DNA of 58,623 bases from Nanobdellota archaeon. Lineage in GTDB: Archaea; Nanobdellota; Nanobdellia; Parvarchaeales; Parvarchaeaceae. The position numbers and the translations under genes were made by a program. Shown here piece after piece: positions 8,270-58,180 of this stretch (its first letter is position 1; each line of letters begins with the position of its first letter). Under the pieces are notes generated by a model, which did not search any database, had not been told where the DNA came from, and saw only the letters and a program-made list of their open reading frames with translations. The DNA is taken from contig JAJZIX010000005.1 of NCBI GenBank assembly GCA_021810345.1, positions 1-58,623 on the forward strand, written 5' to 3'.

Positions 8270-8374
8270 GGGCCCATAGTCTAGCGGACAGGATCGATGG
8301 CTTCGAATGCCACGGATGGAAGTAACCATCTGACCTGGGTTAATAATACAGGAATTCAAATCCCAGTGGGCCCT
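8270..8374 (+). tRNA. tRNA-Arg(TCG) with two introns: 8307-8324 (37/38) and 8340-8354 (53/54)
   Basis: Acceptor GGGCCCA/TGGGCCC; anticodon stem GATGG/CCATC; T arm CTGGG-TTCAAAT-CCCAG is restored only after removing 15 nt; both inserts fold as BHB; no encoded CCA. Confidence 0.9.
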
Positions 8375-8430
8375 TGTTTTTGTTGGACTAAAGTTTAAAT
8401 ACCACTTACAATCTATATCCATTCTGTACG

Positions 8431-8955
8431 ATGGAAACATTGACAGAATCTGATATTAAAGCTGATGCAAAAGAGGCTCTCCTTTGGGTATACAATGATG
8501 AGAGGAAGGCACTAGATCATTTAGGTCTGTACATTCCAAATATAAAAATAGACCGAAAAACAACCGCAAAAGTTACAAGCAGTTCCCTCCTAGATACGTT
8601 AGATTCTATCGTAAGTTCACTTGAAGATTACGCCAGGAGGTGCGATGTAATCTCGCTTGCAGGTGGCAGAAGAAAGTACATTGTAAAGCCATACCTTTCC
8701 GAAGGGCTGTACGAAGCTATGGAAGGAGTATTCGACGACGCTTTGTCAAAATACTCCGAATCAGCAAACAAGCCGTATATACTAAATAAGTATGCGAATA
8801 GCGTATCTGTGCCGGACAGGATACTTAACTCAAAATTTAGTGGCAGCAAGAAGCTTGATAGGGCAGTTTCGGCGTACAATCGCTTTCTAGGCGTGTTTAG
8901 CGAATATGAGTTTGTGGGTTCACTTGAGCAGGTACTGCTTGTTTACAACGGGTAA
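8431..8955 (+). CDS. Hypothetical protein
   Basis: 174-aa ORF with upstream TTTAAATA box; no recognised motif. Confidence 0.6.
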   Translation: METLTESDIKADAKEALLWVYNDERKALDHLGLYIPNIKIDRKTTAKVTSSSLLDTLDSIVSSLEDYARRCDVISLAGGRRKYIVKPYLSEGLYEAMEGVFDDALSKYSESANKPYILNKYANSVSVPDRILNSKFSGSKKLDRAVSAYNRFLGVFSEYEFVGSLEQVLLVYNG

Positions 8956-9011
8956 AATGGCTTCTGGCGCCGGTAGAAAAATATAAATACACGCATTTAA
9001 TGAATATTCAT

Positions 9012-9281
9012 ATGTCCCTTTCCGAATCGTCAAAATCATTGAGAAAGCTGTTTCTGCACGATAAGCCATTTATTCTGCTTCAGGTCATAAATGAGAACGA
9101 CGGAAGGATATACCCAGCAATGATATCAAAAAAGATAGACTGCAGCTACGCCTACGTTGTAAAGCTAGTCACTCTTATGGACAAAATGGGGCTTTTATCA
9201 TCGGATGGAAATCCACACAAGAAGCTTCTGTCTTTGACCCAGAAAGGAAAGAAAATATTCAAGCTGCTTTCTGACTTGTAA
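9012..9281 (+). CDS. Small winged-helix (MarR-like) DNA-binding protein
   Basis: YPAMISKKIDCSYAYVVKLV..MDKMGLL...LTQKG pattern. Confidence 0.75.
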   Translation: MSLSESSKSLRKLFLHDKPFILLQVINENDGRIYPAMISKKIDCSYAYVVKLVTLMDKMGLLSSDGNPHKKLLSLTQKGKKIFKLLSDL

Positions 9282-9762
9282 GGCTTTTGTCTATTGCGTC
9301 TGCGTATTCGTTTATCCTGCTTACCACCCGGTTTATCAGGTAGGGTTGAACAAAATTTGACACCACTTCCTTAAGGGGCAGGTTTTCTCTTATCCTGTAG
9401 TTGTTTCCTCTTTTCTCCACTAGACCAACTGCCAAGAGCTTTCTCAGGTCCCTTAGTACATTTGCGTAGACTATTCTAATGTTTTTTGAGTATAACCCCT
9501 TTATTATCTCATAGCTGTCCAATCCATCTTTCTTTTTGGTTCTTTGCTTTAGCAGTATATCAAGTATATGGACGATCCCGATACGGCTCTCCCCCGGGCT
9601 AACCAAGCCGAATGAGATGCAGAATCTCCTGAGATTTACAAAATAGTCGCTGCCCGGCTTTTCAAATTCATTCAGGGATATACTGATAAGCGGCTTGTCT
9701 TTGTATAATCTTGCTTTGACCTTCTTCTTTACTGCGCTTTCATGCGGCATCATAGAAGTCAC
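9259..9762 (-). CDS. Putative winged-helix protein
   Basis: FCISFGLV.PGESR and ANVLRDLRKLLAVGLVEK wHTH-like segment. Confidence 0.6.
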   Translation of the reverse strand: MTSMMPHESAVKKKVKARLYKDKPLISISLNEFEKPGSDYFVNLRRFCISFGLVSPGESRIGIVHILDILLKQRTKKKDGLDSYEIIKGLYSKNIRIVYANVLRDLRKLLAVGLVEKRGNNYRIRENLPLKEVVSNFVQPYLINRVVSRINEYADAIDKSLTSQKAA

Positions 9763-11051
9763 TTACTTCCCAGCGAGTTGAGTTTGTTCTGAATCTCAAC
9801 TATCTCGTCCTTTGTTGCGAACGATGGGAGGGCAGCCTTCAGCTTGTTGATTTCATTCTCAAAATCATTTTCTCTTTTTGAGAGATCGGAAATGTTCTTG
9901 TTCAGTGCCGAGAATTTGTTTAGTGAAGAGGTTATCTCGTTGAACATTATCTCCACTTTGGAAGCCTGCACATTCATCTTATTCTGCGTCTCTTCCATGG
10001 CCTTGTATAAGTCCTGCACACTGTCAAAAAGTTTTGCTGCGTTCTTTACGGTTCCAAGCTCGGATATCTTTGAGGATACCGCGCTCATCTGCTTGCTTAG
10101 TGAACTCTGGCTCTCGGTTGTTCTGTCAAGCTCCTTGCTCAGGGCGTCAATTCTATCTTGGGATGCCTTGACTGCAGATTTTATCTCCTCTGGATTGTAA
10201 TTTGACAGCGTGTTGATTGATGTTCTTGCAAGGTTTATGAACTCAAGAATATGGCTCTGGGTGTCGGATACAGCTTTCTGTATGTTCTGGAATTCCTTTG
10301 CCATAGACTCCAGCTTAAGGCTCAGCCCATTTGTCTCTACAACTAGTGAATTTGTAGTGTTCGCGGTTCTCTCAAACTTCTTGTCCAAATCCGCCCGGGC
10401 TTTCTTCAGGTCGATTATCTCATCGTTGATTGAATTGACAGCCGGGAGTCCAGAATAAACCGTTTCCGCGAGCTTGTTCAGTTTTTCAGCAAGTTCATTG
10501 TTTGCGCTGCTAAGGCTGGACACGCTGTCCTTTATGCCGTCTGAAAGAACTTTGTAGTTGTCGGACAGAAGCCTGTTACTTTCCTCGATTCTCTTTATTG
10601 TCTCCGAATCGTTGTGTGACTTTAGGTTTATGCTGTCTGCTATATTGTTGAAATTAGTTATCGAGTTGTTTAGGTTGTCAGAAAGCTTGTTCATCCCCTC
10701 GGTGAGCCCACTTAACGTGCTGCTTAACTCGTTGATCCTTTTGCTCGTTTCTGAGTGTTCTTCGTTTATCTTGTCTATGGCAGAGTTAAAGCTTGATATT
10801 GTAGTATTAAGGTTATCAGTAACTTTATTTAGGCCGTCGTTCAGAAACAGGATTCTCTGCTGGGTCTGGTTTAAGCTCTGGATTAGGTCGTTATCCTTTG
10901 TTTTTTGCACCTGTATCACAGTGTCATTTAGAACGCCGATCCTGTCGTATAAATCAGAGATTATCTTCCCCATCGAGCTATTGAATCTTTCTACCTCTTC
11001 CTTATAAGACTCATATACTTGAGAGAACCCACCACTGATAACATCGCTCAT
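9759..11051 (-). CDS. Long coiled-coil protein
   Basis: Heptad-rich S/N/E/K/L composition across 430 aa; no TM segment or ATPase motif. Confidence 0.65.
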   Translation of the reverse strand: MSDVISGGFSQVYESYKEEVERFNSSMGKIISDLYDRIGVLNDTVIQVQKTKDNDLIQSLNQTQQRILFLNDGLNKVTDNLNTTISSFNSAIDKINEEHSETSKRINELSSTLSGLTEGMNKLSDNLNNSITNFNNIADSINLKSHNDSETIKRIEESNRLLSDNYKVLSDGIKDSVSSLSSANNELAEKLNKLAETVYSGLPAVNSINDEIIDLKKARADLDKKFERTANTTNSLVVETNGLSLKLESMAKEFQNIQKAVSDTQSHILEFINLARTSINTLSNYNPEEIKSAVKASQDRIDALSKELDRTTESQSSLSKQMSAVSSKISELGTVKNAAKLFDSVQDLYKAMEETQNKMNVQASKVEIMFNEITSSLNKFSALNKNISDLSKRENDFENEINKLKAALPSFATKDEIVEIQNKLNSLGSK

Positions 11052-11120
11052 ATAACATTAACTGCGGTTTGTAATATTTAAATCTTTAATAGCAAAAACT
11101 TTGAGCCGAGGCATTGGGCC

Positions 11121-57028: not shown

Positions 57029-57062
57029 ATAATTATTAATATGTATAGTCAATATAATACTA

Positions 57063-57413
57063 ATGATAGAGCTAGAGAGAGTCTATAATTCAAAGAGCAA
57101 AGGATTCAGGATATTAGTAGACAGGGTCTGGCCAAGAGGCCTGACAAAAGAAGCGGTTAATGCGAATGTGTGGATTAAGGATATCGCACCAAGTGATGAG
57201 TTGAGAAAATGGTTCGCACACGACGACAGCAAATGGGGGCAGTTCAGGAAAAAATACAAAAAAGAGCTTAAAACAAAGCAAAACATCGAGAAGCTTAAAG
57301 AAATTAAGGAACTGGAAATAAAAAACAAGAAGATAATACTCCTATTCGGAGCTAAGAACGAAAAGCACAACCAAGCGGTCGTTTTAAAGGAAGTTTTGGA
57401 TAATTTTAGATAA
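57063..57413 (+). CDS. DUF488/YeaO family protein
   Basis: RILVDRVWPRG, APSDELRKWFAH, HNQAVVL. Confidence 0.9.
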   Translation: MIELERVYNSKSKGFRILVDRVWPRGLTKEAVNANVWIKDIAPSDELRKWFAHDDSKWGQFRKKYKKELKTKQNIEKLKEIKELEIKNKKIILLFGAKNEKHNQAVVLKEVLDNFR

Positions 57414-57445
57414 ATGTTTATAAATGATGAGCGTTTAGAAGCAAT

Positions 57446-57760
57446 ATGGGAATCGATCCAGATTTCAAAACAAAAAGACAGAAGGTCGGGACTCACAGTA
57501 ACCACGATGTGTGGGGGCCAGTAGACTCTCCAAATAAGTTAGGGATACACGGTTCTGTAGTTGCTATAGATTGGGATATATGCAATGCTGATGGTTCGTG
57601 TATACCTGCATGCCCTGTTAGCTTAATAGAGTGGAATGATACTCCCGGTAACCCAATTTCGGCAAGGAAGGCCGATCCAGCAAGAGAGTCTGATTGTATA
57701 TTCTGCATGGCTTGCCAAAACGTTTGCCCAGTACAGGCGATAAAAGTTACTCCTCCTTAA
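57446..57760 (+). CDS. zfx: Zinc-containing dicluster ferredoxin
   Basis: MGIDP N-terminal extension with H17/H20/H35 and D77; CNADGSC...CP and CIFCMAC...CP. Confidence 0.88.
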
Positions 57761-57791
57761 AGTTTAAATCCTACAGCTGTTTAATCTTAGC

Positions 57792-58043
57792 ATGGACAAA
57801 GATGATATATTTGTCGGTCTGAACTCTGAATTTGGAGTTGAATTCGATGATTTGCAGCGTGCTGCGTCGAGAGTGGCCGATTCTCTAGAAAAGGTTAAAA
57901 TAAATTTTGATGATGACTCGGATAAGCTGCTTAGGCTTAAGGAAGGGCTGGACGAAACGGAGGATCTTGTTAAAAAGTTGTTCGATGATATGAGCAACAA
58001 CCAGGTCTCGGTCGAAACTGGCCAACAAAATGCAGGCAATTAA
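57792..58043 (+). CDS. Hypothetical acidic helical protein
   Basis: 83-aa ORF filling the gap before tRNA-Leu(CAA). Confidence 0.55.
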   Translation: MDKDDIFVGLNSEFGVEFDDLQRAASRVADSLEKVKINFDDDSDKLLRLKEGLDETEDLVKKLFDDMSNNQVSVETGQQNAGN

Positions 58044-58077
58044 AATATAAAAGGACAGGTTCTCTATTGTTAATAAT

Positions 58078-58180
58078 GCAGGGGTAGCGAAGCCTGGCCA
58101 AACGTGGCAGACTCAAGAAATCATTTTTTGGGTTATCTGCCCTCTTTGTGAGTTCAAGGGTTCAAATCCCTTCCCCTGCA
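58078..58180 (+). tRNA. tRNA-Leu(CAA) with 17-nt intron 58118-58134 (37/38)
   Basis: GCAGA-CTCAAG|A-TCTGC; BHB helix CTCA/TGGG. Confidence 0.92.

What the first reader, a model, noticed from the sequence alone, without database searches (positions are those of the whole stretch)
8270..58180. One splicing geometry shared by five tiny introns: possible EndA-gated RNA-modification circuit
Seen: introns of 18, 15, 12, 29 and 17 nt (tRNA-Arg twice, cbf5, tRNA-Leu twice) all follow helix(4)-NN|N...helix(4)-NN|N, several with only 1-2 bp of inner helix. The spliced cbf5 junction reads GGGA-CUUUAGA-UCCC, similar to the tRNA-Leu anticodon arm CAGGA-CUUAAGA-UCCUG, and its intron ends GAAG-AA like the tRNA-Arg intron GAAG-UA. 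A 7-nt loop follows from any BHB, but the sequence likeness does not. Inference: a broad-specificity endonuclease lets introns spread to anticodon-like hairpins. Cbf5 production would then depend on the same enzyme that frees the T loop Cbf5 can modify (psi55). Other 'broken' genes in this genome may hide similar mRNA introns.
Basis: inference. Interest (0 to 1): 0.7.

Follow-up and report, generated by a model that had tools for sequence, protein, structure and literature searches.

The report
Tiny cbf5 intron in ultrasmall archaeon
The five tiny introns are real, and the 12-base one in the pseudouridine-synthase gene cbf5 sits at the site of the cbf5 intron known from Crenarchaeota, here in a tiny-genome archaeon that has only the simplest splicing enzyme; the proposed regulatory circuit remains untested.

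Summary
Observation confirmed. tRNA-Arg(UCG) carries 18- and 15-nt introns, tRNA-Leu(UAA) 29 nt, tRNA-Leu(CAA) 17 nt, and cbf5 12 nt. All fit helix(4)-NN|N...helix(4)-NN|N.

The cbf5 insert has an in-frame TGA and splits the catalytic Asp codon of GTLDP, the codon reported for the known crenarchaeal cbf5 intron. It is real:
- 29 of 39 genomes of the order with a cbf5 match carry a 12-, 15- or 16-nt insert there.
- The central helix shows compensatory U-A/C-G changes.
- Codons forming the outer helix are frozen only in intron-bearing genes.

The same-site intron also occurs in 9 of 395 other sampled class-mates, 56 of 301 genomes of the phylum holding a Bathyarchaeia-labelled genome, and 0 of 201 of the phylum holding a Methanoperedens-labelled genome.

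Interpretation partly supported:
- The endonuclease is a single plain alpha4-type EndA, not epsilon2.
- The tRNA-Leu likeness is mostly coding and helix constraint; tRNA-Gln matches equally.
- The regulator and relaxed-specificity ideas are already published.
- No further mRNA introns could be shown.

Pus10 was not found in 33 of 33 genus genomes, so Cbf5 may be the only psi55 enzyme. This is a new member of a known kind.

The parts
8270..8374 (+). tRNA-Arg(UCG) gene with two introns
   Evidence: Rfam tRNA hit of 33.7 bits. After removal of both introns ARAGORN folds a 72-nt tRNA-Arg(tcg).
8307..8324 (+). 18-nt intron at the canonical 37/38 position of tRNA-Arg
   Evidence: H CUUC/GAAG 4 of 4 bp, outer helix 5 bp, inner helix 2 G.U pairs, bulges GA|A and UA|A.
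8340..8354 (+). 15-nt intron between positions 53 and 54 (T arm) of tRNA-Arg
   Evidence: H CCUG/CAGG 4 of 4 bp, outer 3 bp, inner 2 bp. Its removal restores the T loop.
29081..29312 (-). cbf5 exon 1 (ATG at 29312; ends with the G of the catalytic Asp codon)
   Evidence: It matches Cbf5 model NF003280 positions 5-66.
29069..29080 (-). 12-nt cbf5 intron with an in-frame TGA. A run of A at both borders lets the same deletion be drawn one base over.
   Evidence: A same-site insert is found in 29 of 39 genomes of the order with a cbf5 match.
28305..29068 (-). cbf5 exon 2 (starts with AU of the Asp codon; includes the stop codon)
   Evidence: It matches NF003280 positions 67-318 and TIGR00425, and the Pfam families TruB_N, TruB_C_2 and PUA.
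29064..29090 (-). Bulge-helix-loop splicing motif of cbf5. Outer helix GGGA/UCCC, central helix CUUU/GAAG, 3' bulge AA|A, and the 5' site AG|A in an 8-nt loop.
   Evidence: Covariation of the central helix over 50 distinct junctions.
56393..56507 (+). tRNA-Leu(UAA) gene; 29-nt intron at 56433-56461
58078..58180 (+). tRNA-Leu(CAA) gene; 17-nt intron at 58118-58134

Best explanation
The window lies in a 0.67-Mb genome whose nearest named relatives are labelled Parvarchaeota or Nanoarchaeota. It holds four ordinary archaeal tRNA introns and one pre-mRNA intron in cbf5.

Inferred mechanism: the single alpha-type EndA cuts two bases into each bulge of a bulge-helix-bulge or bulge-helix-loop fold, and RtcB joins the exons.

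In cbf5 this removes 12 nt. That restores the catalytic Asp codon (G|AU) of GTLDP and deletes an in-frame UGA, giving a 331-aa Cbf5.

The intron splits the same codon as the crenarchaeal cbf5 intron and has the same flanking helices as the 56 same-site inserts found in the phylum holding the Bathyarchaeia-labelled genome. It was present at the base of this family and was lost at least twice.

Splicing is most likely constitutive. The in-frame stop acts as a fail-safe, so unspliced mRNA yields a short fragment and not a full-length dead enzyme.

Shown here: the sequence anatomy, its conservation and covariation, and the gene content.
Inferred: the cleavage, the ligation, and the fail-safe role.
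For: Anatomy:
- Searches give the fold and the cut sites.
- Exon 1 matches model positions 5-66 and exon 2 matches 67-318, so the two are contiguous in the Cbf5 model.

Conservation in the order (40 genomes, 39 with a cbf5 match):
- Own genus: 24 of 33 carry a 12-nt insert.
- Second genus: 4 of 5 carry a 16-nt insert with a proper 3-bp inner helix.
- Third genus: the 1 genome with a match carries a 15-nt insert.
- 10 genomes are intronless.

Codons at the site (118 of 124 loci parsed, some duplicated):
- Intron-bearing rows: GGG 43 of 44, GAT 44 of 44, CCY 44 of 44.
- Intronless rows: GGG 11 of 74, GAT 34 of 74, CCY 25 of 74.

Covariation over 50 distinct junctions:
- 99% of central-helix cells pair.
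- The shuffle mean is 88%, and 0 of 2000 shuffles reach the observed value.
- Position 2 is U-A 15, C-G 33, U-G 2.
- Position 3 is U-A 20, C-G 27.
- Register slides give 40-70% pairing.

Other support:
- All 22 of 22 frame-preserving introns hold an in-frame stop, against 9.2 expected from shuffles.
- Tree: the nine intronless genus members form one clade (support 85/78). One further loss gives 3 changes among 42 rows.
- endA is present with both domains and rtcB is present.
- Yokobori 2009 (PMC2738675, section 8) reports spliced cDNAs and in vitro cleavage for crenarchaeal cbf5 introns that disrupt the catalytic residue's codon.
Against: - No RNA data: no RNA run holds this sequence.
- The 12-nt form has no inner helix. 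The minimum-energy fold buries the 5' site at the end of a 6-bp helix.
- Published work holds that alpha4 enzymes cut only strict BHB motifs (Kaneta 2018, PMC5829648, abstract start and section 16).
- The genome is about 90% complete, so a missing second subunit cannot be excluded. However, all 33 genus genomes show one strong PF01974 match; in one genome (G021) that gene is split over two contigs.
- The family tree is a gene tree of Cbf5, not a species tree.
Confidence: 0.8

Rival explanations
1. Gating circuit (the first reader's idea, and the 'negative regulator' of Watanabe and colleagues). Splicing of cbf5 is limiting and conditional. Cbf5 level would then track EndA/RtcB capacity, coupling pseudouridylation (including psi55) to tRNA splicing.
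For: - The intron is kept under strong constraint across a family.
- An in-frame stop is always present, 22 of 22.
- The fold of the 12-nt form partly hides the 5' site, which could make cleavage inefficient.
- Pus10 was not found in 33 of 33 genus genomes. Nop10 is present. Cbf5 is therefore the only candidate psi55 synthase.
- The regulator idea is in Yokobori 2009 (PMC2738675, section 8).
Against: - There are no expression data.
- 10 of 39 genomes of the order lack the intron, and their cbf5 otherwise looks the same.
- Only one tRNA found in the genome has a T-arm intron.
- Every intron-bearing gene trivially depends on its splicing enzyme.
Confidence: 0.15
2. Hot-spot origin. The GGG-ACN-YUN-GAU-CCY coding of GTLDP folds into a stem with a 7-nt loop. 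BHB mini-introns would have entered it repeatedly, for example by reverse splicing, and not descended from one ancient intron.
For: - Scattered occurrence: 9 of 395 class-mates outside the family, in 8 families.
- On a Cbf5 tree of 98 rows the trait needs at least 10 changes, 3 of them forced by starred branches.
- One intron-bearing gene (L065) has near-identical intronless sisters L076 and L088.
- Intron bodies share nothing beyond the parts that pair with the exon.
Against: - Many losses from an old intron explain the same pattern. Loss is documented in Crenarchaeota (PMC2738675) and here.
- Introns of 11-37 nt are too short to test common descent.
- Any BHB intron leaves a 7-nt loop hairpin, so the tRNA likeness is not independent evidence.
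Confidence: 0.3
3. The insert is not spliced. The gene would be a pseudogene or an assembly error, or the ribosome would bypass or read through the 12 nt.
For: The insert keeps the frame, and a stem-loop with a stop codon is also what bypass signals look like.
Against: - The same insert lies in independent assemblies of 24 species of the genus.
- Both exons stay under protein-level conservation.
- The unspliced reading never keeps an Asp at the catalytic place; the readings are E-D, E-A, E-N, E-Y, E-H and E-Q before the stop.
- The 16-nt and 11-nt forms shift the frame.
- The helix register fits the EndA rule exactly.
Confidence: 0.03

Closest known systems
cbf5 pre-mRNA intron of Crenarchaeota (Sulfolobales and Desulfurococcales). 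Sources: Watanabe et al. 2002 and Yoshinari et al. 2006, not seen; Yokobori et al. 2009, PMC2738675, section 8 read.
   Same: - The same gene and the same codon (the catalytic residue).
- The same BHB-type borders, cut between the second and third bulge bases.
- The motif is often relaxed.
- Patchy loss within a clade.
- Some introns keep the frame.
   Different: - The host is a DPANN lineage labelled Parvarchaeota or Nanoarchaeota.
- The intron is 12 nt, against the reported range of 16-44 bp.
- There is no inner helix at all.
- The genome has one alpha-type EndA, not the heterotetramer to which the intron's origin was tied.
Archaeal tRNA introns with BHB or relaxed motifs at canonical and non-canonical positions. 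Sources: Fujishima 2011, PMC3239211, passages; Kaneta 2018, PMC5829648, section 16.
   Same: - The four tRNA introns here are ordinary members: three at 37/38 and one at 53/54.
- About 8 of 44 tRNA genes are interrupted. ARMAN-4 and -5, which have a 177-aa alpha4 EndA, are reported at about 15%.
[quoted passage not shown]
   Different: Nothing material for the tRNA introns. By my simple rule several have inner helices of only 1-2 bp.
HVO_1309 5'-UTR BHB intron of Haloferax volcanii. Sources: PMC7714728 and PMC10485636, passages.
   Same: An mRNA processed by the tRNA splicing endonuclease in an organism without a heterotetrameric enzyme.
   Different: It lies in a 5' UTR, not inside a codon. 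The enzyme is the homodimeric type, and the gene is unrelated.
12-bp insertions in protein genes of an archaeal virus, called putative introns. Source: cited in PMC2738675, section 8; the original was not seen.
   Same: The same length, and the frame is preserved.
   Different: Splicing was not shown there and no BHB was reported. The insert here carries a stop and has BHB-type borders.

Membership tests
Archaeal BHB-type intron | A 4-bp central helix flanked by two 3-nt bulges on opposite strands | tested here: met
   the helix is 4 of 4 bp in four introns and 3 of 4 bp in tRNA-Leu(UAA). For cbf5 the 3' bulge is formed, but the 5' bulge is part of an 8-nt loop.
Archaeal BHB-type intron | Cutting after the second base of each bulge gives a functional product | tested here: met
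   The spliced tRNAs fold as canonical cloverleaves. The cbf5 junction restores GTLDP, and the exons are contiguous in the Cbf5 model at 66|67.
Archaeal BHB-type intron | An inner helix h' beyond the 5' bulge (strict hBHBh' form) | tested here: not met
   cbf5 has at most 1 bp. tRNA-Arg (both introns) and tRNA-Leu(CAA) have 2 bp. tRNA-Leu(UAA) has 5 bp. The cbf5 site is therefore the relaxed bulge-helix-loop form.
Archaeal BHB-type intron | Cleavage by EndA and ligation by RtcB | not testable with these tools
   The genes are present: endA and rtcB. No RNA run holds the sequence.
cbf5 pre-mRNA intron | It interrupts the codon of the catalytic Asp of Cbf5 | tested here: met
   The paper's statement is in PMC2738675, section 8. 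The same flanks occur in 56 of 301 genomes of the phylum that holds a Bathyarchaeia-labelled genome.
cbf5 pre-mRNA intron | Reported size range of 16-44 bp and hosts in Desulfurococcales or Sulfolobales | tested here: not met
   The intron here is 12 nt. Relatives are labelled Parvarchaeota or Nanoarchaeota. Lengths of 11-13 nt also occur elsewhere.
cbf5 pre-mRNA intron | Co-occurrence with a hetero-oligomeric (alpha-beta)2 EndA | tested here: not met
   Own genome: one PF01974 match, and no second hit with the beta models, PF02778, or phmmer --max. Genus: one strong match in each of 33 genomes, split over two contigs in G021. Other intron-bearing class-mates: one match in 7 of 10, one match plus a partial match at a contig end in 1 (G062), none found in 2.
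alpha4-type EndA | A single subunit of about 170-180 aa with an N-terminal and a catalytic C-terminal domain | tested here: met
   173 aa. PF02778 covers residues 6-66 and PF01974 covers 79-165. TIGR00324 endA scores 127.7 bits.
alpha4-type EndA | No specificity loop insert (L1, L2 or L3) | tested here: met
   Residues 10-172 align without a gap to residues 9-170 of M. jannaschii EndA (1a79). The N. equitans alpha subunit (3iey_A) has 6 extra residues that this protein lacks. That this insert is the L3 loop is my inference.
alpha4-type EndA | Homotetramer assembly and strict BHB specificity | not testable with these tools
The relaxed substrates in the genome argue against strict specificity.
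   The ORF is 173 aa with one catalytic domain.

The most novel reading that the evidence does not exclude
The Asp codon of cbf5 is a pan-archaeal landing and retention site for BHB mini-introns. In-frame stops are selected so that Cbf5, here the only candidate psi55 synthase because Pus10 is missing, is made only when the RNA splicing machinery works. This would be a quality checkpoint linking RNA splicing to RNA modification.

In this lineage a plain alpha4 EndA without any specificity loop must cut a 12-nt bulge-helix-loop substrate. If it does, the rule that only (alpha-beta)2 and epsilon2 enzymes handle relaxed motifs would fall.
Probability: 0.2. Interest if true: 0.75.

Novelty: new member of a known kind. 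Interest (0 to 1): 0.5.

Why it matters
Reviews still describe the cbf5 intron as confined to a small group of related archaea and tie it to the heterotetrameric endonuclease (PMC10485636 and PMC7714728, passages).

This work shows the following:
- The same-site intron occurs in a DPANN family with only a loop-less alpha4 EndA.
- It occurs in eight further families of the same class.
- It occurs in about a fifth of a sample of the phylum that holds a Bathyarchaeia-labelled genome.
- Its length goes down to 11-13 nt.

This gives three things:
- A clean natural test substrate for whether alpha4 enzymes really are strict.
- A warning for gene callers. cbf5 is split into two ORFs in these genomes.
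- A comparative data set in which selection on synonymous sites for a splicing fold can be seen directly.

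Tried and rejected
- RNA evidence: no RNA holder was listed for the cbf5 stretch. Read laying was not used, because every listed run is DNA.
- Genome-wide scan for BHB-flanked broken ORFs, loose version: 1520 candidates.
- Strict version of that scan: 144 candidates with the true geometry, against 119-141 with wrong bulge sizes. This gives no enrichment and no power. 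cbf5 itself fell below my 100-codon flank filter.
- Within the window: of 67 ORFs scanned against Pfam, only cbf5 shows one family split over adjacent ORFs.
The 12 of 15 counts are by eye.
- The notes of earlier sessions were closed.
- The first scan of genome contigs with the single protein found nothing. The alignment-based scan worked.
- A call with a locus id as 'of' failed and was redone with a handle.
- Rejected, epsilon2 or heterotetrameric EndA.
- Rejected, pseudogene, assembly error or recoding: see the rival explanations.
- Rejected, whole-gene transfer of cbf5 from the other phylum: the family's Cbf5 sits among class-mates on the tree, though support there is weak.

Full report
**What is in the window.** The window is contig C18 of a 670,455-base assembly of 22 contigs, about 90% complete. 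Its closest named relatives are metagenome genomes labelled Candidatus Parvarchaeota or Nanoarchaeota. Near-identical DNA is held by mine-drainage and tailings metagenomes.

Rfam finds two long tRNA genes in the window, and the genome-wide scan finds a third. The rule is a 4-base strand, two bases, the cut, one base, and later its 4-base partner, two bases, the cut, one base.

| Intron | Window position | Length |
|---|---|---|
| tRNA-Arg(UCG), position 37/38 | 8307-8324 | 18 nt |
| tRNA-Arg(UCG), position 53/54 | 8340-8354 | 15 nt |
| tRNA-Leu(UAA) | 56433-56461 | 29 nt |
| tRNA-Leu(CAA) | 58118-58134 | 17 nt |
| cbf5 (minus strand) | 29069-29080 | 12 nt |

With these stretches removed the three tRNAs fold as canonical cloverleaves. 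The common geometry is the general bulge-helix-bulge (BHB) rule, and a 7-base loop after splicing follows from it.

**The cbf5 site.** On the minus strand an 88-codon frame ending in TGA is followed in the same frame by a 255-codon frame.
- The first piece matches positions 5-66 of the Cbf5 model NF003280. The second matches positions 67-318.
- Removing 12 nt joins ...UUAG to AUCCC and restores G-T-L-D-P, so the cut lies between the first and second base of the catalytic Asp codon.
- The fold has an outer helix GGGA/UCCC, a central helix CUUU/GAAG and a 3' bulge AA|A.
- There is no inner helix. The 5' site lies in an 8-base loop, or at the end of a 6-bp helix in the minimum-energy fold. This is the relaxed bulge-helix-loop form.

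**Is it real?** The order holds 40 genomes in one family of three genera, and 39 have a cbf5 match.

| Genus | Genomes | With insert | Insert |
|---|---|---|---|
| Own genus | 33 | 24 | 12 nt, same place |
| Second genus | 5 | 4 | 16 nt, with a 3-bp inner helix; shifts the frame |
| Third genus | 2 (1 with a cbf5 match) | 1 | 15 nt |

Ten genomes are uninterrupted.

In one species of the genus the central helix is CCUU/GAGG where the others have CUUU/GAAG, a change on both sides.

Codons at the site differ sharply between the two classes. The figures come from loci fetched by protein similarity, of which 118 of 124 could be parsed. Some rows duplicate the same genome and relatives are not independent.

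| Codon | Intron-bearing rows | Intronless rows |
|---|---|---|
| Gly is GGG | 43 of 44 | 11 of 74 |
| Asp is GAT | 44 of 44 | 34 of 74 |
| Pro is CCY | 44 of 44 | 25 of 74 |

These are exactly the choices needed to pair GGGA with UCCY.

Over 50 distinct junction sequences from three sources:
- The central helix pairs in 99% of cells.
- Dealing the intron strands among the sequences gives 88% on average, and 0 of 2000 shuffles reach the observed value.
- Sliding the register gives 40-70%.
- Helix positions 2 and 3 switch between U-A and C-G (15 and 33; 20 and 27).
- The search pattern fixed the exon side and most of the outer helix, so only the intron strand of the central helix counts as evidence.

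A Cbf5 tree of 42 rows puts the nine intronless genus members in one clade (support 85/78) and needs three changes in all, for example one gain and two losses. I left out G044 (partial), G052 (gene on two contigs) and G054 (no match).

**A feature I did not expect.** All 22 of 22 distinct introns whose length is a multiple of three carry an in-frame stop. Shuffling their free bases gives 9.2 expected. In the 12-nt form the stop is U16-G17-A18, of which G17 and A18 belong to the central helix. The sequences are related, so the count overstates independence, but the pattern holds in at least ten length and lineage classes. I read it as a fail-safe against a full-length inactive Cbf5. This is inference.

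**Wider distribution.** Of 80 loci from named genomes, 65 read G-[TS]-[LIM]-D-[PS] without a break and 15 do not. Nine of the 15 are from the own genus. The other six are labelled Woesearchaeota (2), Nanoarchaeia (1), Bathyarchaeia (2) and Nitrososphaerota (1), with inserts of 11-24 nt.

A strict DNA pattern for an interrupted site gave these results:

| Sample | Genomes with a hit | Real after inspection | Reverse-read control hits |
|---|---|---|---|
| Own phylum | 14 of 401 | 13 (4 own genus; 9 of 395 outside the family, in 8 families) | 1 |
| Phylum holding the Bathyarchaeia-labelled genome | 56 of 301 | one second hit within a genome looks spurious | 2 |
| Phylum holding a Methanoperedens-labelled genome | 1 of 201 | 0 (an intronless gene matched by chance) | 0 |

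- The one false hit in the own phylum is also an intronless gene matched by chance.
- The pattern is strict, so these are lower bounds, and the samples are draws.
- The 401-genome tallies include six genomes flagged as unpublished.
- On a quick Cbf5 tree of 98 rows the trait needs at least 10 changes, 3 of them forced by well-supported branches.
- The rows from the Bathyarchaeia-side phylum were chosen because they had the intron, so that tree says nothing about gains there.
- The family of the window sits among its class-mates, not with the other phylum.

**The enzymes.**
- The genome has one endA of 173 aa with both Pfam domains.
- Beta-subunit models, the N-domain model and a full-sensitivity search with the protein itself find nothing else; the next E-value is 1.9.
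- All 33 genus genomes show one strong match, and in one of them the gene is split over two contigs.
- The protein aligns without gaps to M. jannaschii alpha4 EndA. It lacks the six extra residues of the N. equitans alpha subunit.
- This agrees with Fujishima 2011, which reports a single 177-aa alpha4 enzyme in ARMAN-4 and -5 and about 15% interrupted tRNA genes (PMC3239211, passages).
- It also agrees with Kaneta 2018, which reports the L3 loop in DPANN lineages except ARMAN-4 (PMC5829648, section 16).
- Here 8 of 44 tRNA genes are interrupted.
- Of ten other intron-bearing class-mates, seven show one EndA match, one (G062) shows one match plus a partial match at a contig end, and two show none.
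- By contrast, two of three genomes from the Bathyarchaeia-side phylum show two matches.
- rtcB is present.

The inference of an epsilon2-like enzyme is therefore not supported. What stands out instead is a loop-less alpha4 enzyme facing a bulge-helix-loop substrate.

**The circuit idea.**
- Pus10 is described as the genuine archaeal psi55 enzyme, while Cbf5 can do the job alone in vitro, helped by Nop10 and Gar1 (PMC7912444, passages).
- Pus10 was not found over threshold in the own genome or in any of 33 genus genomes. The only hits to the model are the cbf5 genes themselves.
- Nop10 is present.
- Nothing shows that splicing is limiting or conditional.
- A quarter of the order has lost the intron.
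- Both the regulator idea and the relaxed-endonuclease origin idea are already published for Crenarchaeota (PMC2738675, section 8).

**The likeness to tRNA-Leu.**
- Eleven of the 15 junction bases are fixed by the codons of G-T-L-D-P together with the pairing of the outer helix.
- The intron's GAAG is the complement of exon CUUY, both in cbf5 and in tRNA-Arg.
- By eye from the table, the junction matches the anticodon arm of tRNA-Leu(UAA) at 12 of 15 positions, and that of tRNA-Gln(UUG) at 12 of 15 as well.
No p-value is given.

**Literature.** The searches were:
- cbf5 + intron + archaea + bulge-helix-bulge: 8 papers.
- cbf5 + intron + DPANN: 0 papers.
- A five-term search on pre-mRNA splicing from 2010 on: 6 papers.
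- A six-term search including ARMAN, Nanoarchaeota, Bathyarchaeota and Woesearchaeota: none of the 20 listed papers holds cbf5, intron and one of those names in that sense.
- A five-term search on protein-coding BHB introns from 2012 on: 34 papers hold all terms, 25 were listed.

Findings from the papers read:
- Reviews of 2020 and 2023 still state that the cbf5 intron is known from Crenarchaeota, or a small group of related archaea (PMC7714728 and PMC10485636, passages).
- Fujishima 2011 does not mention cbf5; the term occurs 0 times.
- Watanabe 2002 and Yoshinari 2006 are not in the library. What I say of them comes from the papers that cite them.
- Supplements were not opened. Additional file 1 of PMC2738675, which lists intron sizes per species, may bear on the size range.

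**Limits.**
- There is no RNA evidence.
- The search for further mRNA introns had no power.
- The assemblies are incomplete.
- Handles outside the window's phylum carry no taxonomy, so I cannot say which of the 56 genomes are the known Sulfolobales or Desulfurococcales.

Noticed in passing
L140-L149, L154-L155 (genomes G148, G087, G149, G218, G085, G308): In six class-mates cbf5 is one open frame of 820-891 aa. An in-frame insert of about 1.5 kb lies between the parts that match residues about 2-104 and 95-250 of the query. This looks like an intein in Cbf5.
   Followed up: no
G021: C24:10488-10601 and C5:28981-29124: In one genus member the EndA catalytic domain is split over two contigs, with model positions 1-36 on one and 38-85 on the other. 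This is either a split gene or an assembly break.
   Followed up: no
window 45139-45837 (-): A diphthamide-synthesis (Dph2-like) ORF of 232 aa matches only positions 64-292 of the 302-position Pfam model. The S6e gene starts 63 nt upstream on the other strand, so the N-terminal part is missing or lies elsewhere.
   Followed up: no
genome contig C7: 34466-34548 and 53861-53935: [quoted passage not shown]
   Followed up: no
33 genomes of the genus: The Pus10 model TIGR01213 has no hit over threshold in any of them. The only hits are the cbf5 genes themselves at 23-35 bits.
   Followed up: partly
genome contig C6: 17492-17641 (-) and 18780-19298 (+): The Nop10 gene (a Cbf5 partner) lies about 1.1 kb from endA, with an S1-domain ORF and a thioredoxin-like ORF between them. 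A tRNA-Ser gene follows endA.
   Followed up: no
L065 versus L076 and L088: Nearly identical Woesearchaeota-labelled Cbf5 proteins (branch lengths about 0.04-0.07) differ in having the 18-nt intron, which implies a recent gain or loss.
   Followed up: no
window 23380-24991 (+): A 399-aa protein with an Arf/Ras-like GTPase domain is followed by a Roadblock/LC7 protein, which looks like an MglA/MglB-type pair.
   Followed up: no
window 29899-33156 (-): A 1085-aa ORF with no Pfam match at E <= 1e-5 lies next to the cytidylate-kinase-like gene and cbf5.
   Followed up: no
window 456-1244 (+): An ORF for an AbiEii-type nucleotidyltransferase toxin (type IV toxin-antitoxin) lies at the start of the window.
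   Followed up: no
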